Shown piece after piece: positions 11,387 to 21,711 of a stretch of DNA of 64,000 nucleotides. How positions within the stretch are numbered: the first letter of the stretch is position 1; every line of letters begins with the position of its first letter. The notes under the pieces were generated by a model. The model was not told the DNA's origin. It did no database searches and saw only the letters and a program-made list of their open reading frames with translations. The DNA is from Escherichia phage ECP2301: sequence record OR880646.1. The stretch is one strand, 5' to 3'. The position numbers and the translations under genes were made by a program.

Positions 11387-11596
11387 TTAATTTCGCAATT
11401 TATTAAGTTCTTCGTAATCAATCCAGGATTCTAGTCCTGATGGCAAATCAGATTCAATTTCCCAAAGAAGCTCTTCAATTTTCTGAAGACGATCTAATTC
11501 TTCAGCTGGAATAGTAACCATTGACGGAGTTCTTGATACGCTAATATCGTAAATCATATTTACCCCAGTTTGACCATACAATCGCCATATTTCCAT
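11387..11596 (-). CDS. small hypothetical protein
   Basis: 69-aa ORF. Confidence 0.4.
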   Translation of the reverse strand: MEIWRLYGQTGVNMIYDISVSRTPSMVTIPAEELDRLQKIEELLWEIESDLPSGLESWIDYEELNKLRN

Positions 11597-11775
11597 TTAG
11601 AAATAGACTTTTCACCATTAGAATAATAAACTTCAAGTTTAGCACGGTTATTTTTAATTTGAATAACTTTGGCTGTCATCAAAGTTCCATAACCATAGTA
11701 AACTGCGACTTCATCACCTACATATACCGCGCTTCCGCGGTAGTCATGGATATAATCAGTCCCTTCGAGCATCAT
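11560..11775 (-). CDS. small hypothetical protein
   Basis: 71-aa ORF overlapping nrdC stop. Confidence 0.4.
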   Translation of the reverse strand: MMLEGTDYIHDYRGSAVYVGDEVAVYYGYGTLMTAKVIQIKNNRAKLEVYYSNGEKSISKWKYGDCMVKLG

Positions 11776-12035
11776 TTAAAGTATTCCCGCAATTGGTCAA
11801 ATCCACCAATATGACTTCCATCAGGAGCAAATACTTGTGGCATCGTCAAACCAATTTGAGTATCACGACCTAGTTTCGTCAGAAGCTCAGCGATTTTCTC
11901 ATCATCAAAAACACCTTTTTCCGGCATAATGTTGATAAATTCAAATGGCTGTTTCTTTACAGTCAAAAGACGTTTTGCATTATCGCAATACACGCATTTA
12001 TGGATGTTGCTATCATAACCATATACTTTAAACAT
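11772..12035 (-). CDS. nrdC: thioredoxin/glutaredoxin NrdC
   Basis: 87 aa, CVYC active site, MFKVYGYDSNIHKCVYCDNAKRLL as T4 thioredoxin. Confidence 0.9.
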   Translation of the reverse strand: MFKVYGYDSNIHKCVYCDNAKRLLTVKKQPFEFINIMPEKGVFDDEKIAELLTKLGRDTQIGLTMPQVFAPDGSHIGGFDQLREYFK

Positions 12036-12280: not shown

Positions 12281-12649
12281 TTAATCCAAAATATTATTAG
12301 GCATTGGTTGAACACTCGCAAGTTCTTTAAAGAACTCAGTAGAGTCAGGTAATTTAACCATTTCCGGAGCATGCTTGCTAAATTTGTGTTTACAATGACG
12401 GCATTTATATTCAAGTTCCGGTTTACGCCAGTTAATCAATTGAACCTGTTCAGTACCGCATTCAGGACAATTAGGAACGTTTTTAGAAGCCCTTTCGCGA
12501 CGTTCAACCATAGCCATAATAGCATCCCAGGCTGGAGGTTTAAAATCTAAATCGTCAGTAACTAACAGTCCTTTATCAAACCCAGCGCATGGAGTCCATT
12601 CAGGAAAATCTGAAGCTTCGGCAATATCTTCTAATAGACGCTTTTTCAT
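12281..12649 (-). CDS. zinc-ribbon protein (CPEC...CRHC)
   Basis: 122 aa; two CxxC pairs 20 residues apart. Confidence 0.55.
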
Positions 12650-13575
12650 TTCAATACCTCAATAGCATTACGTAAACCATTTGCTTTTGCATTAAGAGCT
12701 TTTAACAATTTGGTGTGTTCGGCAATCTGGGCTTCAACTTCAATCAAACGAGCATTGAGATATTCACGTTCTTCGCTCAAGTTATCAATCTTTTCTACTT
12801 TAGGCTCTTTTACAACTGTCTTATATGTATTAGGGTTCTTCAGTTTAATTAGAATACGTGAACTGTATAACATTGAACCATTATCTTCGATTTCGTCATA
12901 CATTTCTACTACGTCCATGATTTTTAACATCATGCGGAGTTTATAAGACAACGAACGAATAGTTTTGTTGTGCTTATTAATTTCTTTAGAGTTCATGGTG
13001 CCAAGATTACGTGAGTAATAATAAGGAACCTGGATATTAATTAACACTGATGAACCACCTGGCTTGTGTGTTACTTCATCAGCAATAACCCAATCCTTAA
13101 CATGAACTGTATTTGTACGGTCATCACCAGCAGTAAATAGTTTGCGAGCATGCTTAAAAAGCATATTCACTTGGTCATTGAATTGACAAGCAAATTTATC
13201 AGCAAATTTAGTTTCAGGAATGGTAGATAACCAATCAGCCAAGTGGGTCTTTTTAACATCGTTAACAATAGTAAATTCAACCAAATCGGTTATAGATGTT
13301 GCAGATTTAATGAAGCTCGGCTTCATAAAGTTTTTAATGTTATCGCGAGCTACAGTAGAAGATAACATACGAGAACGTTTAAACCATTCAAGCAAATTGC
13401 CCAATGAATGAGAATAGGCGTTTTGAGTATCTTTACAGATATGATTTTCCTGGCCAACATATTGAAGGAAATCACGAAGAATATTATTGATTACTGCTCT
13501 GTGTCCGATCTGATAATTACGGTGTTTAGTAATAAGACTGTCAAAATAATCAATATAATGTTTACGAGTTTTCAT
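12646..13575 (-). CDS. modular protein, member 1 of coiled-coil-tailed tandem family
   Basis: 309 aa; globular N-domain, KEPKVEK linker, C-terminal amphipathic heptad helix ending NAIEVLK. Confidence 0.7.
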   Translation of the reverse strand: MKTRKHYIDYFDSLITKHRNYQIGHRAVINNILRDFLQYVGQENHICKDTQNAYSHSLGNLLEWFKRSRMLSSTVARDNIKNFMKPSFIKSATSITDLVEFTIVNDVKKTHLADWLSTIPETKFADKFACQFNDQVNMLFKHARKLFTAGDDRTNTVHVKDWVIADEVTHKPGGSSVLINIQVPYYYSRNLGTMNSKEINKHNKTIRSLSYKLRMMLKIMDVVEMYDEIEDNGSMLYSSRILIKLKNPNTYKTVVKEPKVEKIDNLSEEREYLNARLIEVEAQIAEHTKLLKALNAKANGLRNAIEVLK

Positions 13576-13627
13576 GTTCTTCTCACTTGGTTAATGATTT
13601 ATACTCCGAGCCATCCTTGGCTTTAAA

Positions 13628-14629
13628 TTACTTAATTAACTGTAAAGCTTGTTCAAGACGATCCAGGCGATTAACAGATTCTTCCCAAATCCTTTTAGCC
13701 TGCTCATATTCTTTCTGCGCTTTATTAGAAATTTCTAGAACTTCTTTATAAGCTTTTTCTAGTGCAATAACTTCTGGACGAATTTCTACCGGTTCAGGTG
13801 AATCGTCAAGACATTCCATTAGTTCCTCAAGGGTAGTTTCTTCTTTAGGAGTATTCACAATTTCTTCACATTTTTGTTGGTAAATTTCTTTATCAGTCGG
13901 TGAGTACGCACATTTCACTTCACGAAGGCTAATTATAATTTTATATCCTTCCCAACCACACATATTTTTGAAAGGATATGTATGAATACTTTTTACAGTT
14001 TCCATACAGCCCAAAGCCGCCTCTAATTGATAAGTTATAGTGCTAGCAATTGAGAAAAATTTATTAATATTCTTTTGGTTAGCGTTTGGTGTAAAAAATC
14101 CATAATTCACAAAAATAGCTACTTTATTTTTATCAAGCTCATATTCTTTTACGATAATCATATCAGAAGCCAAAGGATGAATTTGACGATAATCGCCATA
14201 ACATAATTTAGAAGCGGATTTTAGAAGTTGCTTCTTGAAAAGTCTGAAATTACTAATCCAACGACGAGTAAAAATATTCTCAGGGTCTTCTTTATTATTA
14301 AGATGATAAGAATTAACATCACCGAACCAATTATATCCTACTACATCTTTAGTTCGTTTAATTTCTTTCCCAAATTTACTAAGAATATCTCTGTTGACTA
14401 AGTATGAAAGAAGACGAGAACCTTTAAAGGTTTCCTTAATATCATCTTTATATTCGCAACTAGAAATTTTATGAACTTCATGAATAAATTTGCCGGAAGA
14501 AACAATACTTGCATCAGTATTGTTGAGCCACTGATTGATAATAGAAAGAACACTATTCTGACTAGACATAGATTTAACTTTATCATCAATAACGCTATTG
14601 AATGATTTGATATATTCGTTACGAGTCAT
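13628..14629 (-). CDS. modular protein, member 2 of coiled-coil-tailed tandem family
   Basis: Start moved to MTRNEYIK (SD GAGGAG upstream; ORF-track Met lies in the -10 box); PEPVEI linker and C-terminal coiled coil ending LEQALQLIK. Confidence 0.7.
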   Translation of the reverse strand: MTRNEYIKSFNSVIDDKVKSMSSQNSVLSIINQWLNNTDASIVSSGKFIHEVHKISSCEYKDDIKETFKGSRLLSYLVNRDILSKFGKEIKRTKDVVGYNWFGDVNSYHLNNKEDPENIFTRRWISNFRLFKKQLLKSASKLCYGDYRQIHPLASDMIIVKEYELDKNKVAIFVNYGFFTPNANQKNINKFFSIASTITYQLEAALGCMETVKSIHTYPFKNMCGWEGYKIIISLREVKCAYSPTDKEIYQQKCEEIVNTPKEETTLEELMECLDDSPEPVEIRPEVIALEKAYKEVLEISNKAQKEYEQAKRIWEESVNRLDRLEQALQLIK

Positions 14630-14654
14630 ATTAATCTCCTCAGTAGAAAGTAAG

Positions 14655-14690
14655 AACATTATACCACATCCTTGTGGCGAAGTAAACTAG
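14655..14690 (-). promoter_or_regulatory. early promoter (GTTTAC -35, TGgTATAAT -10)
   Basis: Minus strand GTTTACttcgccacaaggatgTGgTATAATg. Confidence 0.65.
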
Positions 14691-15706
14691 TTTAGTGCAT
14701 TTAGTGCATTGTTCAGTTTAGAACGTTGCTTCGTGAGATTTTTGACTTTTTCTTGAGCTTTTTCTAGCATCTTTTCAGCTTCTAACACTTCATTAGTTGC
14801 TTTAACGAGTTCATCATCTACTGCCTTGATAGACTTCTCAATCGCATCCGCGTGCCATTTTTCAACAGGTTTAAGACTCGGATTTTCAACAGGAAGAAAA
14901 TTCACTTTATTGAATTTCCATGCATCCTTATTACCTGAACTATACATCCAAAATTTAGGATCGTTTGATGAGTAATTGGATAAATTTAAAATATCTTGCA
15001 CTTCCTGCTTTTTCTCTTGCGGGATTTCGTCCTTTCTCAAAAAATCGTATTTAAATGAAACGATCATATCAAGTTCATATGTTGTTGTGTCTAATTTAAA
15101 TCGCTCAAAACGAGGTAAAATCTTAGACTGAACAGCGGCAACAACATCCATATACTTAAATGCTTCTGTCAACTGCGATTTAAGGCATTCGCAAATTGAA
15201 AGAGAATTTTTTGTATTAGGTTTAAAGCTAATTCGTGCAGTTCTGTTATTTTCTTTTAATGGTCTTACTTCCATCTGAAGAGTATAACCATCAAATTTCA
15301 GGTTCTTTAAGTTAATGTCAGAACCTTTTAATCGACTAGCCGTCGACAAAATTTGCTTTAATTGCTTACGGAATAGAGCAATAAATCTCCATTCAATACG
15401 ATAATGATTTGGATTGAAAAATCCAGATGATAAATCGACCTTACTCTGACCAACGCCTTGAACAAATAGAGGATTTTTATAATCAATAGTTTTACAGAAA
15501 TCGGTGAGTTGCTCACGAGCAGTCATTTGTGTAATATACCCCGCTTTACTAAAATGACGTAACCATTCACTGCTATTCATATATTTAAAGTGAATATCAC
15601 GATTAACTTTATCAGGGTCTAAATTATTTTGGCACAAAAATGTCATAACATCACGAGTATAGCTGGCATTACGAACCATATCTTCAATTTGAGAACGAGT
15701 TTTCAT
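14687..15706 (-). CDS. modular protein, member 3 of coiled-coil-tailed tandem family
   Basis: 339 aa; LKPVEK linker then coiled coil ending LNNALNALN. Confidence 0.7.
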   Translation of the reverse strand: MKTRSQIEDMVRNASYTRDVMTFLCQNNLDPDKVNRDIHFKYMNSSEWLRHFSKAGYITQMTAREQLTDFCKTIDYKNPLFVQGVGQSKVDLSSGFFNPNHYRIEWRFIALFRKQLKQILSTASRLKGSDINLKNLKFDGYTLQMEVRPLKENNRTARISFKPNTKNSLSICECLKSQLTEAFKYMDVVAAVQSKILPRFERFKLDTTTYELDMIVSFKYDFLRKDEIPQEKKQEVQDILNLSNYSSNDPKFWMYSSGNKDAWKFNKVNFLPVENPSLKPVEKWHADAIEKSIKAVDDELVKATNEVLEAEKMLEKAQEKVKNLTKQRSKLNNALNALN

Positions 15707-15714
15707 GGTGTTCC

Positions 15715-16626
15715 TTAAGATTTAAGTAAATCGACAATTTTAATTAACTTTTCACGCTCAGATTTAGCTTTACTACTCAGTCCAGATAGTCTGAAAATTT
15801 CATCATCATATTGTTGAATAGAAATATTCAGCTCTTCAATCTGTTTATTAAAATAATCAATTTGTTCAGAATGTTTTTCGTTACTACGAACTGGTACAGG
15901 TTTCGTAGGCAATGTAGTTGAACTGGATTCATCCGGGCGATAAATTAAAATACAACTTGAACCAATAGGGCATTTTGCACCAGATGAATATTCTAATGTT
16001 CCAGCTTCTTTTAAAACTTCAAAAGCTAAACAGAGATGATGCCCCATATTGACATAATCTGTAGAGCGAGCTCTGATATAATAATCATCGCCACGAATAC
16101 TAAATTTAAAGCATTTAAGGTCTTCTGTATTATTGGTCTTAAAAATCATTTGTTTATCTAGACCTTTAGCTAATCGAGCGCCTAATGCTAATAATCGTCT
16201 TTGATTTTCCCACAAATCCGCAATCATTTGATCGAATGATAATTTTGGCATCAGTCGACCGTAAAGGTCATATCCTTTATTATAATTACGAAGGATTTCA
16301 CTCGCATTAATACGAGATAATGCTCCAATTTTATTAAGGGCTTTCATAATGCGATTAGATAAACTCATTCCAGATCCGTTTGTTCGCTGCAAATGTTTTT
16401 CTAATCCAAATCCAATATCAACTTTAAACTTATCTAAAATTTCTGCATGAACATCTCTGTCGATAACATTCAAATCCAAAGTTGAGTTAAATCTATGAAA
16501 AAATTTATCTGGCTCTGCACTGCGAAATACAGTCCATTCATTCATCATTTTTTTATTAACTAAAGATTTAATTACTGCATTGACATTATTAATTACTACT
16601 GACATATTTTCCTCACTCAATTTCAA
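15715..16626 (-). CDS. modular protein, member 4 of coiled-coil-tailed tandem family
   Basis: 303 aa; TKPVPV linker then C-terminal helix ending KIVDLLKS. Confidence 0.7.
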   Translation of the reverse strand: MKLSEENMSVVINNVNAVIKSLVNKKMMNEWTVFRSAEPDKFFHRFNSTLDLNVIDRDVHAEILDKFKVDIGFGLEKHLQRTNGSGMSLSNRIMKALNKIGALSRINASEILRNYNKGYDLYGRLMPKLSFDQMIADLWENQRRLLALGARLAKGLDKQMIFKTNNTEDLKCFKFSIRGDDYYIRARSTDYVNMGHHLCLAFEVLKEAGTLEYSSGAKCPIGSSCILIYRPDESSSTTLPTKPVPVRSNEKHSEQIDYFNKQIEELNISIQQYDDEIFRLSGLSSKAKSEREKLIKIVDLLKS

Positions 16627-17020: not shown

Positions 17021-17075
17021 AATAATCTCAATTAAAAGGGCTTAGAACCATTATACCATCCTTGGTATAAAGCGG

Positions 17076-17603
17076 TTATGCGAGTACCGTCTTTAACCGT
17101 TCTTCAAACTTCCGAAGAGTATTTTGGCGTTCAGCTCTTTGCTTTTTGTAAGTTTCAATACGCTCTGAAATGAGAGTGTATCGTTCATTTACTGATTCTT
17201 TCATAAAATCAGGAATTTCACGAGAAGCTTTAATCTCGTCAAATTTATCAATAACAGCTTGCTCTTCAGCAATTAAGTTATCATACATTAAAATATCTTT
17301 CTTGATGAACTCAATATCTTCTTGAGTTACACGAGATAATTTAGATGCTTTATCCTTTTTGTACTGTTCATTAGTATCACGAGACCAGTGTAATGTACGA
17401 TTTTTATTCGTATTCTTGTAAATTTCTACAATACCGATCTCATCAATAATAACGATCCAATTCCAACGGGATTTGTAAATTTGTCCTCCATCAACAGTGA
17501 TTTCACCTCCGATTGAGATGTCATTAAAGAACTTGCTTTGTGCTTCAGATTTAAATTTACCATCGTTGTAATTTACCAAGTTGAAAATATCTTTAGCGTT
17601 CAT
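17076..17603 (-). CDS. hypothetical protein with C-terminal coiled coil
   Basis: 175-aa ORF preceded by early promoter. Confidence 0.6.
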   Translation of the reverse strand: MNAKDIFNLVNYNDGKFKSEAQSKFFNDISIGGEITVDGGQIYKSRWNWIVIIDEIGIVEIYKNTNKNRTLHWSRDTNEQYKKDKASKLSRVTQEDIEFIKKDILMYDNLIAEEQAVIDKFDEIKASREIPDFMKESVNERYTLISERIETYKKQRAERQNTLRKFEERLKTVLA

Positions 17604-17624: not shown

Positions 17625-17665
17625 TAGTTGTATAGTACCACAGAGGAACAGTCTTGTAAACCACT
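17625..17665 (-). promoter_or_regulatory. early promoter, TACTAT variant of the family
   Basis: Minus strand GTTTACaagactgttcctctgTGgTACTATacaactatcaact then SD GGAGG. Confidence 0.55.
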
Positions 17666-18067: not shown

Positions 18068-19036
18068 TTATTTCAGAAGAGTAACCTCAGCGATTTCTTC
18101 CCAACCGTTTTTGTCGGTCATAATAAAGTCAGCAAGATAAAGAGCAGTACGCAGTGAAACATTGCGTAAACGATTAACATTAACTTTCATCCATGATAAT
18201 GCTTTATAAGTTTCTTCATCAGAAAGACCGCGCTTTTGCATCATGTCAGTTGAAAGAATAACATCTTCAACTCTGACCATAATTTCTTCATTAGTGTGAA
18301 CACCCAGATCTAAATAAACCGAGCGGGACACTAATGCTTGTAAATGTGGAGCAAGTTTAGTACCACGGTCTAATTCGCGGTCAATGTCAACGTTTGTGAT
18401 AAAAACAATCGTTCCTTTAAATTCAAACTCACGCTCAATGCCTTTTTCTTCTAAGTAAGAAGACGCAGTGCTCCAGCAGACTTTACGGGTCTCTCCAGTG
18501 TCCAGAGCGGCTTTTAGAAGATTAAGAATGTCCATATCAGAGAAAACATCCACATCATCAATCAAAAGGACAGAATTCTCTTCACGATTATTCCAAAGCT
18601 GCTCATAAAGACCAATACCAGAGATTTTACCATTAATGCTTTTATATTCAATGTATCCAATATCATTTGCTTTATTTAAAGCTTTATCTAAAGAATACGT
18701 TTTACCAATACCTGCTGCGCCAGAGATAATCAATGAACGAATATTTCCATTAATAATACCATTCGTCATCATTCCCATAACATTAAATCTTTTATTAATG
18801 CGGGTTTTCATATCTTCATATGATTCTTTAACTTCTTCAACTTTTACACCATCATATGAAATATCTGATTTGTAAACCCAAACACCGCGACGCTTACCGT
18901 CAATTTCAACAAAAACTTTACCATCTCCTTGTGCATCTACCGGAGCATTATCTGGGAACCATTCGCCTAAGAGTTCAAAAGTTCCAGAGATTTCTTTACC
19001 GAAGTAGATACCCTTATTGATAGTTACAGTTTTCAT
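18068..19036 (-). CDS. AAA+ ATPase (Walker A GAAGIGKT, Walker B LLIDDVD)
   Basis: Start set at MKTVTINK (SD GGAG upstream); ORF-track N-terminal extension runs through the promoter leader. Confidence 0.75.
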   Translation of the reverse strand: MKTVTINKGIYFGKEISGTFELLGEWFPDNAPVDAQGDGKVFVEIDGKRRGVWVYKSDISYDGVKVEEVKESYEDMKTRINKRFNVMGMMTNGIINGNIRSLIISGAAGIGKTYSLDKALNKANDIGYIEYKSINGKISGIGLYEQLWNNREENSVLLIDDVDVFSDMDILNLLKAALDTGETRKVCWSTASSYLEEKGIEREFEFKGTIVFITNVDIDRELDRGTKLAPHLQALVSRSVYLDLGVHTNEEIMVRVEDVILSTDMMQKRGLSDEETYKALSWMKVNVNRLRNVSLRTALYLADFIMTDKNGWEEIAEVTLLK

Positions 19037-19054
19037 TTTATTCTCCAAATCCGT

Positions 19055-19105
19055 ATCAGTTGATAGTTGTATAGTACCATAAAGCTTTATGCTTGTAAAC
19101 CGTTT
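19055..19105 (-). promoter_or_regulatory. early promoter, TACTAT variant with conserved leader
   Basis: Minus strand GTTTACaagcataaagctttaTGgTACTATacaactatcaactgatacgg; near-identical copies at 17625-17665 and 34150-34186. Confidence 0.55.
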
Positions 19106-19128
19106 TGTGAAAAAATTTTTGAAATAAA

Positions 19129-19151
19129 AAAGGGAGCCCGAAGGCTCCCTA
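19129..19151 (-). terminator. intrinsic terminator (GGGAGCC-UUCG-GGCUCCC + U5)
   Basis: Plus aaaagggagcccgaaggctccc; minus RNA hairpin followed by UUUUU. Confidence 0.6.
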
Positions 19152-20165
19152 TCATTTATAATAACTTCGATGGTTTTCAAGATAAACCCTCTCAAGGAAG
19201 TCATCCCAGAAACCCATGTCTACTTTTTGCTGCATACCGTTCTTAGAAGCTTCAATGGATGCTGCTTCTACTTGATCGACCACATCTTCCAAAAACTCTT
19301 GAACAGTTTTAAATGGATGTTTACCCAACTTCACGTCAAGAATAAATGGAGCGTCTTGAAGTGGATAGACTAAGTCACCAGTTTTGTAAATTTCCAATAG
19401 TTGGAGTCCACCACGGCAAGCATGACTCAGAGCTTTCCAGTCAATGCCCTCATTCGCTTCAGCCTTACGAGCACGTTCGCCGTATTCAGCATCAAGTTTA
19501 TTCAAAGACTGCTTAAGCTCAATAAGAGAAAGCGTTGTTTGATATTTACGACCCAGCACAGTGTAGAACGTTTGTGGACCTGTTTTCTCATGATTATGGA
19601 ATACCCATTCACAGAATTCGTTCTCTGGAAGACGATGCTTAATATCTTCAACTTTAGTTCGACGCTGCTTAATGGAACCGTCTTCTTGGTAATCAACCCA
19701 TTGCTCAGGGATTTGATTAACTACTTTCAATACATCACGTAATGCGGCCAAACGAGAACCCTTGACGCCGTATTTAGAAGCTTGCTTGCGAACATATCCT
19801 AAATAGGATTTCATGTTAGTCGTATAAAAACGAGAACGGTTGTCTTGAATAAACTTCCATACATCAGGCAAATCAGATTTAACTACCAGTTCAGGTGGAG
19901 TGTGGAGCATATCCAATGCTACAGTTTCACCATCTGCTGCTAATTTAAAGAAATACTTAAGACTGTATAGTTCATGGTCAATATCATCTTTAGTGTTTTT
20001 AGATGATGTGTTGTTAGTGTTTTTACTCATATGCTCTTTAACATTTCCTATAAGAATATCACGAGCAGGAGGAACAAAGATTTCTTTAAAATCTACATCA
20101 GATTCTGGAGTAGAAGTTCCATAAAGATGACTACCAAAATAGCTTTTCATTACTGTTTTCATCAT
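19152..20165 (-). CDS. Pol-beta-superfamily nucleotidyltransferase (resembles the 'predicted nucleotidyltransferase' family associated with RNA-repair loci)
   Basis: 337 aa; N-terminal FGSHLYGTSTPESDVDFKEIFVPP fits GSx(9-13)DxD NTase motif; helical C-terminal domain. Confidence 0.6.
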   Translation of the reverse strand: MMKTVMKSYFGSHLYGTSTPESDVDFKEIFVPPARDILIGNVKEHMSKNTNNTSSKNTKDDIDHELYSLKYFFKLAADGETVALDMLHTPPELVVKSDLPDVWKFIQDNRSRFYTTNMKSYLGYVRKQASKYGVKGSRLAALRDVLKVVNQIPEQWVDYQEDGSIKQRRTKVEDIKHRLPENEFCEWVFHNHEKTGPQTFYTVLGRKYQTTLSLIELKQSLNKLDAEYGERARKAEANEGIDWKALSHACRGGLQLLEIYKTGDLVYPLQDAPFILDVKLGKHPFKTVQEFLEDVVDQVEAASIEASKNGMQQKVDMGFWDDFLERVYLENHRSYYK

Positions 20166-20623
20166 TCAGCCTTATATTCAATAACAGGACATACTTTAGC
20201 TTTACGCGCTTTTAAAAATTCGACGATAATAGATTTCTTGGGTTGAATAGGAGGTAAACCTTTATACGCCCTATCAATATTTTCTACATGTAAAGCATAA
20301 TCCTTTTTCCATTTATAATCTTTATATTTTTCATGCAGTTGTGCAGGAATAACAAATGAACCAATAATAAGTAAAACAAGCAAAATGGCAAGTATAAATG
20401 CTGATGGAATAAGAGTCCATAAACTACCAAAAATAAGCCATTTCTGTATGATTTCTGCGCAGATAATAGTTAGACCTGCGAGCATAGTACATCCGAATAA
20501 AGAAACGAAAAATGTAGGGATAACAATAGACCAAAAATACGCGCACAGTGTCTTAGGTCGTTTCCATTCGTCGTTAAACATTTTGAATAATTTATAATGC
20601 CAAGAGTTTTCATTAATAATCAT
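20162..20623 (-). CDS. integral membrane protein (3-4 TM helices)
   Basis: 153 aa with several long hydrophobic stretches. Confidence 0.6.
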   Translation of the reverse strand: MIINENSWHYKLFKMFNDEWKRPKTLCAYFWSIVIPTFFVSLFGCTMLAGLTIICAEIIQKWLIFGSLWTLIPSAFILAILLVLLIIGSFVIPAQLHEKYKDYKWKKDYALHVENIDRAYKGLPPIQPKKSIIVEFLKARKAKVCPVIEYKAE

Positions 20624-20625
20624 AA

Positions 20626-21147
20626 TTATCCTTTCATTGAAGGTGTAACAGTTGTTAAATACTTAATCATAGCTTCAGCTTCTGATTTTGATAATGAAAT
20701 TTCTCCATTGTTTTGACGAATAGAAATAAAATCCGGATGACGGTCACCACCAGCTTTTAAAATACACATATAAGTATCAGTTTCATCTTCAATATCTGAA
20801 ATAATTGAAGCAGTTCCACATGAATGTGGTTTTTGATAAATCAATGCAGCTTTTCTTCCACCGTTTGACTGTTCATAAACTTTTAACACATCAAACAAAT
20901 CGCTTCTTTTATCAATAGCTAAGATGTTGTTTTCATCTTCAATGTTAAATCCTTCGGATACTTCATAAAGTGTCACCCATAAATCGCCAATATCAATGAC
21001 AGCATTCACCTTTCCATGATTTTCAAGAGCATTACAAATTTTCTTAATTTCATCATAACTCATTTTAATAATATCATCTCCTTGAATAAGGAAGATGTCA
21101 TTTTTAAATTCAACACGAATTAAACCACTTCCACTTGAAATAAACAT
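20626..21147 (-). CDS. hypothetical protein, tandem paralogue A
   Basis: 173 aa; shares GFNIE motif and C-terminal KYLTTVTPSMKG tail with next ORF. Confidence 0.6.
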   Translation of the reverse strand: MFISSGSGLIRVEFKNDIFLIQGDDIIKMSYDEIKKICNALENHGKVNAVIDIGDLWVTLYEVSEGFNIEDENNILAIDKRSDLFDVLKVYEQSNGGRKAALIYQKPHSCGTASIISDIEDETDTYMCILKAGGDRHPDFISIRQNNGEISLSKSEAEAMIKYLTTVTPSMKG

Positions 21148-21153
21148 ATTTCC

Positions 21154-21711
21154 TCACTTTGAAATCATAGTTGGAATGACAGAATCAAGATAAGTCTTTA
21201 GCGCAATAGCTTCGTCTTTGGTAAATGTGACAATATGCGATCGAAAATCATCAATTTGACGAATAGTTAAGACATCACCATCTTCATAGCATTTTGATAC
21301 GTTTAAAACAGTTTCATCATTCTGATTGCAAGCGTTAGTAATAATAGCATTGCAATTTTTGAGCCATTTTAAACTATGTTTTCTTTCATTAGAATAATAA
21401 AAATATTTAATCTTATCTATAAAACTATCCCAATGAATAACTGATAAACATATTGACTCGCTTTCAATATTAAATCCTGGGCATGAAGAATAAAAATGAA
21501 TTTTATGCTCATCATTAATGCTTACAATTTTATCAGTATAAGGATTTTCAATTTGGGTTAAATGAATGATTTCACTAGGCGTAAAATACATCATATCATC
21601 TTCTTGCGTCAAACGATACATATTATTTACTTTTTCTATAGCTAATTCACCAAAAAGTGAACTAACTTCTAATACTAATCGTTTCATATTGATTCTCTTC
21701 GACTCACTCAC
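21154..21711 (-). CDS. hypothetical protein, tandem paralogue B
   Basis: 185 aa; GFNIESES and C-terminal KTYLDSVIPTMISK resemble previous ORF. Confidence 0.6.
   Translation of the reverse strand: MSESKRINMKRLVLEVSSLFGELAIEKVNNMYRLTQEDDMMYFTPSEIIHLTQIENPYTDKIVSINDEHKIHFYSSCPGFNIESESICLSVIHWDSFIDKIKYFYYSNERKHSLKWLKNCNAIITNACNQNDETVLNVSKCYEDGDVLTIRQIDDFRSHIVTFTKDEAIALKTYLDSVIPTMISK

What the first reader, a model, noticed from the sequence alone, without database searches (positions are those of the whole stretch)
12646..16626. Tandem array of four modular early proteins with a shared proline linker and C-terminal coiled coil
Four consecutive minus-strand genes (309, 333, 339, 303 aa) share an architecture: a divergent globular N-domain, a short P-x-P-V-E-like linker (KEPKVEK / PEPVEI / LKPVEK / TKPVPV), and a ~40-residue amphipathic helix ending in an L-x-x-(A/I)-L motif. 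Two start MKTR. This looks like a diversifying paralogue family with a common oligomerisation or docking module and variable effector heads, sitting in the hypervariable nrdC-to-rI interval behind an early promoter. I cannot match it to any characterised T4 protein from memory. It is a plausible host-takeover or anti-defence effector family.
Basis: partly seen in the sequence, partly recalled or inferred. Interest (0 to 1): 0.75.

Follow-up and report, generated by a model that had tools for sequence, protein, structure and literature searches.

The report
T4 nrdC.3–nrdC.6 anti-defence paralogue array
The four genes are the T4-type early genes nrdC.3, nrdC.4, nrdC.5 and nrdC.6, old tandem copies of one phage-specific protein family, and because NrdC.5 is already published as blocking the bacterial immune protein Dsr1, the other three become candidate immune-evasion genes.

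Summary
The window is a Tequatrovirus (T4-like phage). The four minus-strand genes are orthologues of T4 nrdC.3 (61% aa identity), nrdC.4 (89%), nrdC.5 (94%) and nrdC.6 (97%). All four end in a [EK]P.?V[EP] linker, an unbroken 47-56-residue heptad helix and a terminal LxxA(L/I)xxLK motif. Both motifs are essentially unique to these proteins in the window.

Two corrections are needed. The fourth gene most likely starts at ATG 16605, giving 296 aa rather than 303. The "heads" are not unrelated. NrdC.3 and NrdC.4 are clear homologues (E 1e-14). NrdC.5 aligns collinearly with them (HHalign 94%, E 1.6e-7; reversed control E 0.5). NrdC.6 is linked mainly by structure (Foldseek E 2.5e-5, prob 1.0).

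The array is old. A (3/4)-(5)-(6) triplet sits beside nrdC in three other T4-like lineages. Acinetobacter phage Acj61 has two copies there and Klebsiella phage F48 has one.

T4 nrdC.5 is published as counteracting the defence sirtuin Dsr1 (eLife 2022). So the anti-defence reading is established by experiment for one member and inferred for the rest. No solved structure or enzyme family matches. The genes are known. The superfamily link appears unreported in the library I could search.

The parts
12646..13575 (-). nrdC.3-type gene (309 aa). It is a divergent allele, 61% aa identical to T4 NrdC.3. Its DNA is 83-86% identical to the Mosigvirus gene.
   Evidence: phrog_1435 E 7e-117; HHalign against the NrdC.4 family prob 98%, E 6e-14
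13628..14629 (-). nrdC.4 gene (333 aa, 89% identical to T4). The AF2 model has an N-terminal helical domain (3-84), an alpha/beta domain (88-235), two short helices, a disordered linker (263-284) and a C-terminal helix (285-332).
14658..14686 (-). T4 early-type promoter GTTTAC-17-TGGTATAAT between nrdC.5 and nrdC.4, identical in T4. This is a consensus match only.
14687..15706 (-). nrdC.5 gene (339 aa, 94% identical to T4 NrdC.5, the published anti-Dsr1 factor). It matches Pfam DUF7235.
   Evidence: (PF23882, 414 bits against a cut-off of 30)
15715..16605 (-). nrdC.6 gene (296 aa from ATG 16605, 97% identical to T4 over 259 aa).
   Evidence: phrog_2257 E 1e-151
12649..12810 (-). NrdC.3 tail: KEPKVEK linker, heptad helix and terminal LRNAIEVLK.
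13631..13798 (-). NrdC.4 tail: PEPVEI linker, heptad helix and terminal LEQALQLIK.
14690..14875 (-). NrdC.5 tail: LKPVEK linker (K279, P280, E282 and W284 invariant in the family), heptad helix and terminal LNNALNALN.
15718..15906 (-). NrdC.6 tail: TKPVPV linker, heptad helix and terminal LIKIVDLLKS.
17050..17073 (-). Context: a MotA-box-like GCTTTA, 12 nt, then TATAAT upstream of nrdC.7. It is a candidate middle promoter that could feed nrdC.7, nrdC.6 and nrdC.5. This is a consensus match only.
17632..17660 (-). Context: an early-type promoter GTTTAC-17-TGGTACTAT upstream of nrdC.8. This is a consensus match only.

Best explanation
The four genes are old tandem paralogues of one family found here only in T4-like phages, the NrdC.3/4, NrdC.5 and NrdC.6 lineages.

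Each protein has four parts:
- an N-terminal helical domain;
- an alpha/beta domain;
- a short proline-containing linker;
- a C-terminal heptad helix ending in LxxA(L/I)xxLK.

They are soluble proteins. Three of the four are basic (pI 9.1-9.4; NrdC.4 is about 7.0). They are transcribed from early and probably middle promoters. The nrdC.5-containing region is dispensable on laboratory hosts.

Shown by published experiment: T4 NrdC.5, which is 94% identical to the third gene here, lets the phage grow on cells carrying the NAD-depleting defence sirtuin Dsr1.

Inferred:
- The family consists of non-enzymatic proteins made early in infection that bind and neutralise host immune proteins.
- NrdC.3, NrdC.4 and NrdC.6 have target specificities different from NrdC.5.
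- The C-terminal helix provides oligomerisation.
- NrdC.5 probably acts before the late trigger of Dsr1 (a capsid protein in other phages) is made, for example by occupying the Dsr1 sensor. DSAD1 does this for DSR2.
For: Identity of the genes.

Homology of the heads:
- NrdC.3 against NrdC.4: HHalign prob 98%, E 1e-14.
- The 3/4 profile, without the bridging sequence, against the enriched NrdC.5 profile: prob 93.9%, E 1.6e-7 over 180 collinear columns. The reversed-profile control gives E 0.52.
- Reciprocal best non-self HMM hits among 242 ORF segments of the window.
- The AF2 model of NrdC.4 (pLDDT 84.5) hits the BFVD model of JS10 NrdC.6 at E 2.5e-5, prob 1.0. It also hits about 17 other 300-370-aa proteins of T4-like phages.
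- A combined 3/4/5 profile against the NrdC.6 family gives E 7.7e-4, against 0.21 when reversed.
- Bridge protein P0263 has a NrdC.4-like head (E 2e-9) and a NrdC.5-like tail (phrog_2351 E 4e-11).

Shared tail features.

Synteny and copy number:
- A triplet next to nrdC in HX01, CJ20 and a metagenomic contig.
- Two copies between nrdC and nrdC.10 in Acj61, one with E 2e-6 to the 3/4/5 profile.
- One copy in Klebsiella phage F48.

Function: nrdC.5 restores plating of a T4 deletion clone on MG1655 carrying dsr1 (PMC9391042). That clone had lost nrdC.5, which shows the gene is dispensable on the laboratory host.

Not an enzyme:
- The residues conserved across the families are mostly hydrophobic, and no His/Asp/Cys cluster is conserved.
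- Pfam gave only DUF7235 (for NrdC.5), and NCBIfam and PADLOC gave no significant hit.
- There is no PDB homologue by sequence or by fold.

Early expression: promoter matches.

Local variability: these genes diverge more from T4 than most of their neighbours do.
Against: - Only NrdC.5 has any functional evidence, and its mechanism is unknown. Direct binding to Dsr1 has not been shown.
- The link to NrdC.6 is weak by sequence (E 0.04 to 8e-4). It rests on one Foldseek hit with a modest TM-score (0.39/0.45).
- The AF2 model of NrdC.5 itself failed (pLDDT 47), so its fold was not compared directly.
- Tail-only profile comparisons are not significant.
- The two motif counts were defined after seeing the sequences.
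- dN/dS is well below 1, so there is no evidence of positive selection of the kind often seen in arms-race genes. Only one genome pair was compared.
- The basic heads could equally suit nucleic-acid binding.
Confidence: 0.55

Rival explanations
1. The paralogues are subunits of one hetero-oligomeric complex. Their similar C-terminal helices would bundle together, and the array would work as a single machine rather than as independent inhibitors.
For: - The tails have the same length, register and terminal motif.
- The order (3/4)-(5)-(6) is conserved across genera.
- The genes are adjacent and share promoters.
- The published complementation used a phage whose deletion extent is not given in the text, so other paralogues may still have been present.
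Against: - Copy number varies from 1 to 4 among T4-like genera.
- The T4 reference nrdC.6 has lost its tail through a frameshift.
- Natural genomes lack nrdC.4 and carry a disrupted nrdC.5.
- nrdC.3 alleles are exchanged independently of their neighbours.
Confidence: 0.15
2. Only NrdC.5 is an anti-defence protein. The other paralogues do something else early in infection, such as binding nucleic acid or a host housekeeping protein as part of host takeover.
For: - Three of the four heads are basic, with pI 9.2-9.5 and net charge +7 to +11.
- NrdC.3 residues 30-86 give weak sub-threshold matches to the N-terminal SAM-like domain of tyrosine recombinases (Pfam E 0.057; NCBIfam E 0.0017-0.012).
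- NrdC.6 is under strong purifying selection (dN/dS 0.05).
Against: - The genes lie in a variable accessory region next to a proven anti-defence paralogue.
Confidence: 0.2
3. There is no real family beyond NrdC.3/NrdC.4. On this view the shared tails are generic coiled coils, and the other resemblances are chance.
For: - Pairwise BLASTP is significant only for NrdC.3 against NrdC.4.
- Tail-only HHalign gives E 0.002-0.2.
- Pfam keeps three separate families.
Against: - The collinear head alignment of NrdC.5 with NrdC.3/4 has E 1.6e-7, and the reversed control has E 0.52.
- Foldseek links NrdC.4 to NrdC.6.
- A bridge protein connects the families.
- The linker and terminal motifs are unique to these proteins and sit at the same positions.
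- Synteny is conserved.
Confidence: 0.04

Closest known systems
T4 NrdC.5 (UniProt Y05A; Pfam DUF7235, PF23882), the anti-Dsr1 factor of Srikant et al., eLife 2022 (PMC9391042)
   Same: The third gene is its orthologue, with 94% aa identity and the same position and length. The other three share its architecture and, at the profile or fold level, its ancestry.
   Different: NrdC.3, NrdC.4 and NrdC.6 do not match PF23882 and have no functional data. The searchable literature does not describe NrdC.5 as part of a paralogue family.
Pfam PF26897 (Phage_T4_Y04OP, covering NrdC.3 and NrdC.4) and PF26899 (Phage_T4_Y05B, covering NrdC.6)
   Same: Genes 1 and 2 belong to the first family and gene 4 to the second. 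All retrieved homologues carry these domains.
   Different: Pfam treats these and DUF7235 as three separate families of unknown function. Here they are linked into one superfamily with a common tail.
DSAD1, the phage inhibitor of the defence sirtuin DSR2 (for example PMC10973363 and PMC10981675, abstracts seen)
   Same: It is a functional analogue. It is a phage protein that switches off a SIR2-type NAD-depleting defence protein that senses a virion structural protein. This is the mechanism I infer for NrdC.5.
   Different: No sequence or structural comparison with DSAD1 was made here. The target is a different protein (Dsr1, whose sensor recognises major capsid proteins; PMC13581612). Binding has not been shown for NrdC.5.
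T4 internal proteins IPI, IPII and IPIII
   Same: They are a small family of T-even accessory proteins with a shared terminal module and variable remainder. IPIII is needed on ECOR17 (PMC9391042). From my own knowledge, IPI* counters the GmrSD restriction system. Their leader MKTY(Q/A)EF(I/L)TE superficially resembles MKTR...I.
   Different: The shared IP module is an N-terminal capsid-targeting leader cleaved after (L/I)-x-E (cleavage rule from my own knowledge). The NrdC proteins have no such site at residues 8-10. Their N-terminus is modelled as an ordered helix (pLDDT 95). Their shared module is C-terminal.

Membership tests
DUF7235 / T4 NrdC.5 (PF23882) | Full-length match to the Pfam model above its gathering score | tested here: met
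   The third gene scores 414.3 bits against a cut-off of 30, E 4.6e-124, over residues 1-339. It is 94% identical to T4 NrdC.5.
DUF7235 / T4 NrdC.5 (PF23882) | The same match for the other three genes | tested here: not met
   There is no PF23882 hit for genes 1, 2 or 4 at E <= 1. They are related only at the profile-profile or fold level.
DUF7235 / T4 NrdC.5 (PF23882) | Counteracts Dsr1 during infection | not testable with these tools
   This is known only for the T4 protein, by plasmid complementation (PMC9391042).
PF26897 Phage_T4_Y04OP (NrdC.3/NrdC.4) | Full-length homology to T4 NrdC.3 or NrdC.4 | tested here: met
   Gene 1 is 61% identical to T4 NrdC.3 and gene 2 is 89% identical to T4 NrdC.4. 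Both match phrog_1435 end to end. All 94 homologues carry PF26897. That Pfam model is not in the local Pfam copy and was not scanned directly.
PF26899 Phage_T4_Y05B (NrdC.6) | Full-length homology to T4 NrdC.6 | tested here: met
   Gene 4 is 97% identical over 259 aa and matches phrog_2257 at E 1e-151. All 105 homologues carry PF26899.
Proposed NrdC.3-6 superfamily | Collinear homology of the heads | tested here: met
   This verdict applies to NrdC.3, NrdC.4 and NrdC.5 (E 1e-14 and 1.6e-7, with reversed controls). For NrdC.6 the sequence evidence is inconclusive (E 0.039 to 7.7e-4). Foldseek supports it at E 2.5e-5, prob 1.0.
Proposed NrdC.3-6 superfamily | Proline linker, heptad helix and terminal LxxA(L/I)xxLK at the C-terminus | tested here: met
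   All four proteins have these features. The terminal motif is conserved within each family across genera and also occurs in HX01, CJ20, P0057, P0257, P0263 and Acj61p120.
Proposed NrdC.3-6 superfamily | Position between nrdC and nrdC.7-11 in T4-like genomes | tested here: met
   This holds for T4, KMB39, HX01, CJ20, L005, Acj61 and F48.
DSAD1-type inhibitors of defence sirtuins | Direct binding to the sensor domain of the DSR protein, competing with the phage trigger | not testable with these tools
   No binding data exist.
DSAD1-type inhibitors of defence sirtuins | Sequence or fold similarity to DSAD1 | not tested
T4 internal proteins (capsid-targeted) | N-terminal leader MKTYxEF(I/L)xE with an (L/I)-x-E cleavage site | tested here: not met
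   The window's own IP-like ORFs carry MKTYQEFITE and MKTYAEFLTE. The NrdC proteins share only MKT and an Ile at position 7 or 8, and they lack the (L/I)-x-E site.

The most novel reading that the evidence does not exclude
The array is a diversified toolkit of early inhibitors. On this reading each paralogue neutralises a different host immune sensor. One possibility is different members of the large group of defence proteins that share the Dsr1/Avs7-type sensor (PMC13581612). The conserved C-terminal coiled coil would then be a common oligomerisation or docking module. Copy number (1 to 4 across T4-like genera) would track the defence repertoire of the hosts. NrdC.3, NrdC.4 and NrdC.6 would then be three new anti-defence proteins with a previously undescribed fold.
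Probability: 0.3. Interest if true: 0.7.

Novelty: new member of a known kind. Interest (0 to 1): 0.45.

Why it matters
NrdC.5 is one of the few known phage counter-measures to the defence sirtuin Dsr1, and its mechanism is unknown. Three results bear on that.

- It is one of four paralogues in T4, and the family reaches Acinetobacter and Klebsiella T4-like phages. This gives three concrete, easily deleted candidate anti-defence genes in the best-studied phage.
- The domain map (head, linker, coiled coil) can guide truncation and binding experiments.
- Natural variants serve as ready-made controls. These are the T4 nrdC.6 frameshift, the nrdC.5::nrdC.3 fusion and the exchanged nrdC.3 alleles.

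The work also shows that three Pfam families of unknown function should probably be treated as one clan.

Tried and rejected
- **Pairwise BLASTP.** Among the four proteins, only NrdC.3 against NrdC.4 is significant.
- **First-pass HHalign.** Shallow family alignments gave only suggestive links (E 1e-4 to 0.1). Adding diverged orthologues was needed.
- **Tail-only HHalign.** Not significant.
- **Exhaustive HMM search.** The 3/4 profile against 1.84 billion proteins found only 11 representatives. None was a NrdC.5 or NrdC.6 family member, apart from bridge protein P0263.
- **AF2 of NrdC.5.** Its shallow alignment failed (pLDDT 47), so there was no direct fold comparison for the one characterised member.
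- **afdb50.** The library was unavailable.
- **DNA-mimic idea (Ocr/ArdA-like).** Rejected because the proteins are basic or near-neutral, not acidic.
- **Capsid-targeting leader.** Rejected.
- **Tyrosine-recombinase N-domain.** The hits for NrdC.3 are far below the cut-offs.
- **Other library scans.** PADLOC and Rfam found nothing.
- **Further paralogues in the window.** None was found, including NrdC.8, whose C-terminus looks coiled-coil-like.
- **Extent of the T4 deletion.** The deletion complemented by nrdC.5 could not be read from the text or the held supplements.

Full report
**What the region is**

The 5.1-kb stretch around the finding matches 743 phage records, nearly all Tequatrovirus, at 80-98% DNA identity. 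The ORF at 11772-12035 is 100% identical to T4 thioredoxin NrdC.

I compared the four ORFs with the annotated T4 record and a second annotated genome.

| Window gene | Size | T4 orthologue | aa identity |
|---|---|---|---|
| 12646-13575 | 309 aa | nrdC.3 | 61% |
| 13628-14629 | 333 aa | nrdC.4 | 89% |
| 14687-15706 | 339 aa | nrdC.5 | 94% |
| 15715-16605/16626 | 296 or 303 aa | nrdC.6 | 97% over 259 aa |

**Gene starts and promoters**

- The ATG that would give a 343-aa nrdC.4 product lies inside TATAATG of a textbook T4 early promoter, GTTTACTTCGCCACAAGGATGTGGTATAAT. This promoter is identical in T4. The real start is ATG 14629, behind GAGGAG.
- nrdC.6 most likely starts at ATG 16605, behind GAGG and overlapping the nrdC.7 stop. 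This gives 296 aa, as in T4.
- A second early-type promoter lies upstream of nrdC.8.
- A MotA-box-like GCTTTA-12-TATAAT lies upstream of nrdC.7.
- All of these are consensus matches, not demonstrations of transcription.

**The shared tail**

- Each protein ends with an unbroken heptad pattern over 47-56 residues. The a/d positions are 80-94% hydrophobic against 18-30% elsewhere.
- In the AF2 model of NrdC.4, the tail is a single helix (285-332) after a disordered segment (263-284).
- The linker pattern [EK]P.?V[EP] occurs five times in 11,491 residues of minus-strand ORFs. Four of those are in these proteins, directly before the helix.
- The terminal pattern L..[AI][ILVM].[AVL][LIV][KN] occurs four times in all 242 six-frame ORF segments of the window. 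All four are at the very C-termini of these proteins. It is conserved within each family across genera.
- Both patterns were written after seeing the sequences, so the counts are descriptive.
- Profile comparison of the tails alone is not significant (E 0.002-0.2).

**The heads are homologous too**

- BLASTP links only NrdC.3 and NrdC.4 (E 4e-9). Profiles confirm this link (prob 98%, E 1e-14).
- Three searches of the 5.8-billion-protein collection gave family alignments. An exhaustive HMM search then added two diverged members, P0257 and P0263.
- I enriched the NrdC.5 family with positional orthologues from HX01 and CJ20 and removed P0263 from the 3/4 profile. HHalign then gives prob 93.9%, E 1.6e-7 over 180 collinear columns (NrdC.4 residues 65-258 against NrdC.5 residues 49-237). 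The reversed-profile control gives E 0.52.
- Within the window, the 3/4 HMM and the NrdC.5 HMM are each other's best non-self hits.
- P0263, from Klebsiella and Enterobacter T4-like phages, has a NrdC.4-like head and a NrdC.5-like tail.
- NrdC.6 is not significantly linked by sequence. It scores E 0.039 against the 3/4 profile, 0.0044 against NrdC.5 and 7.7e-4 against the combined profile. The alignments are collinear and better than the reversed controls.
- The confident AF2 model of NrdC.4 (pLDDT 84.5) hits the BFVD model of phage JS10 NrdC.6 at E 2.5e-5 and probability 1.0. It also hits about 17 other uncharacterised 300-370-aa proteins of T4-like phages infecting Klebsiella, Enterobacter, Pectobacterium, Erwinia, Serratia and Acinetobacter.
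- The recurring sequence landmarks are an N-terminal (K)TR..(Y/F)I, an SRLLS...L..FG helix, an AS(K/R)L..GD helix-turn, and an L...L..M(D/E).V helix.

**Age and distribution**

| Phage (lineage) | Family members beside nrdC |
|---|---|
| Tequatrovirus (this window, T4) | .3, .4, .5 and .6 types (4) |
| Mosigvirus HX01 | .3, .5 and .6 types (3) |
| Gaprivervirus CJ20 | .4, .5 and .6 types (3) |
| Diverged metagenomic contig L005 | .4, .5 and .6 types (3) |
| Acinetobacter phage Acj61 (another subfamily) | two members between nrdC and nrdC.10 |
| Klebsiella phage F48 | one member (P0263 type) |

- The Acj61 pair are the BFVD hits E5E4A1 and E5E4A2. One scores E 2e-6 against the 3/4/5 profile and ends in LNKALEIMML.
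- The family is therefore widespread in T4-like phages (Straboviridae and Marfavirus), stays at one locus, and ranges from one to four copies.

**Variation**

- Against T4, most flanking genes are 96-100% identical in protein. The nrdC.2 to nrdC.7 stretch is more diverged: nrdC.2 57%, nrdC.3 61%, nrdC.4 89%, nrdC.5 94%, nrdC.6 97% and nrdC.7 91%. Further out, pin is also lower, at 87%.
- dN/dS is 0.30, 0.25, 0.12 and 0.05 for nrdC.3 to nrdC.6. In six flanking genes it is 0.00-0.08. nrdC.2 (0.34) and nrdC.7 (0.47) are also raised, and pin and nrdC.11 could not be computed.
- The nrdC.3 allele here is 83-86% identical in DNA to Mosigvirus genes, which implies exchange between genera.
- The region is a local divergence hot spot. 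It is under purifying selection overall, not obviously positive selection.

**Function**

- Srikant et al. (eLife 2022, PMC9391042) found that a T4 clone with compensatory deletions could no longer plate on ECOR17. Deleting dsr1 from the host restored plating. Expressing nrdC.5 from a plasmid restored plating on MG1655 carrying dsr1.
- No other paper in the searchable library deals with nrdC.3 to nrdC.6 beyond passing mentions, and none describes them as a family.
- The Dsr1 sensor domain recognises major capsid proteins of other phages (PMC13581612).
- The NrdC proteins have no enzyme-like conserved residues. Pfam gave only DUF7235, for NrdC.5, and NCBIfam and PADLOC gave no significant match. 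There is no solved homologue and no membrane segment.
- Three of the four are basic (pI 9.1-9.4) and NrdC.4 is near neutral.
- The best-supported reading is that these are early, stoichiometric binders of host immune proteins that oligomerise through the tail. DSAD1 against DSR2 is the nearest functional analogue.
- This is shown for NrdC.5 only at the genetic level. It is inferred for the mechanism and for the other three proteins.

**Rivals**

- A single hetero-oligomeric complex is not excluded. Variable copy number, the tail-less T4 nrdC.6, natural loss of nrdC.4 and independent exchange of nrdC.3 make it less likely.
- A non-defence role for the other paralogues, such as nucleic-acid binding by the basic heads, remains open.
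- The "no family, just coiled coils" reading is essentially refuted.

**Verdict**

The genes are known and one already has a published function. What appears new is the link joining three Pfam families of unknown function into one superfamily around the anti-Dsr1 protein. This is a useful, moderately interesting lead rather than a new kind of system.

Noticed in passing
L002 9067-9130 (T4 NC_000866 nrdC.6 3' end); window 15715-15830: The T4 reference nrdC.6 carries a 1-nt deletion relative to the window (ctg-atattt against ctgaatattt). This shifts the frame and gives a 275-aa product without the coiled-coil tail. The tail sequence ISIQQYDDEIFRLSGLSS...LLKS is still intact in the other frame. 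It is either a sequencing error or a laboratory-strain mutation.
   Followed up: partly
window 12281-13575: nrdC.2 and nrdC.3 are only 57% and 61% identical in protein to T4, while the nearest conserved neighbours (nrdC, nrdC.1, nrdC.8 to nrdC.11) are 98-100%. The nrdC.3 DNA is 83-86% identical to genes of Mosigvirus phages (HX01, APCEc01, Shf125875). This looks like an allele replacement across genera.
   Followed up: partly
L006 4570-5900 and L007 1931-3261: Metagenomic T4-like genomes carry a 115-aa fragment plus a 299-aa ORF (P0056). The ORF joins NrdC.5 residues ~145-268 to NrdC.3 from residue ~138 onward. nrdC.4 is missing entirely.
   Followed up: partly
P0058 (Shigella phage Sf25 NrdC.6, 378 aa): This NrdC.6 homologue contains an internal tandem duplication of about 83 residues (IRAHSTDYVNMGH...QIEEL appears twice). 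It could be real or an assembly artefact.
   Followed up: no
window 20163-21156 and 11387-11775: tblastn with T4 mobD (a homing endonuclease) and with 49.3 finds nothing in the window. Two small ORFs (69 and 71 aa) occupy the 49.3 position.
   Followed up: no
window 18068-19204: The nrdC.10 ORF can be read as 378 aa from an upstream ATG, against 325 aa in T4. A gene caller made the same 378-aa call in L006. The protein contains a Walker-A-like GAAGIGKT.
   Followed up: no
window 29504 and 34903 (minus strand starts): Two ORFs (157 and 187 aa) begin with MKTYQEFITEA and MKTYAEFLTEA. This is the capsid-targeting leader typical of T-even internal proteins (identification from my own knowledge).
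   Followed up: no
window 12646-15706 (N-termini of NrdC.3, NrdC.4, NrdC.5): The first residues (M)(K)TR..(Y/F)I are conserved. T2 and R3 are present in 15 of 15 non-redundant representatives of the 3/4/5 families across genera. NrdC.6 lacks the motif. Its role is unknown.
   Followed up: partly
window 17076-17603 (nrdC.8): The C-terminus of NrdC.8 (...ETYKKQRAERQNTLRKFEERLKTVLA) looks like a similar amphipathic helix. None of the family HMMs gives it a significant score.
   Followed up: partly
window 12281-12649 (nrdC.2): This nrdC.2 allele (122 aa) has CxxC...CxxC spacing and sub-threshold zinc-ribbon matches (Pfam Zn_ribbon_8 E 1.3e-5, below the cut-off).
   Followed up: no
L008 1229-3938 (Acinetobacter phage Acj61): Acj61 encodes adjacent nicotinamide phosphoribosyltransferase and ribose-phosphate pyrophosphokinase genes. 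This pairing is the kind described for phage NAD+ reconstitution pathways that counter NAD-depleting defences.
   Followed up: no
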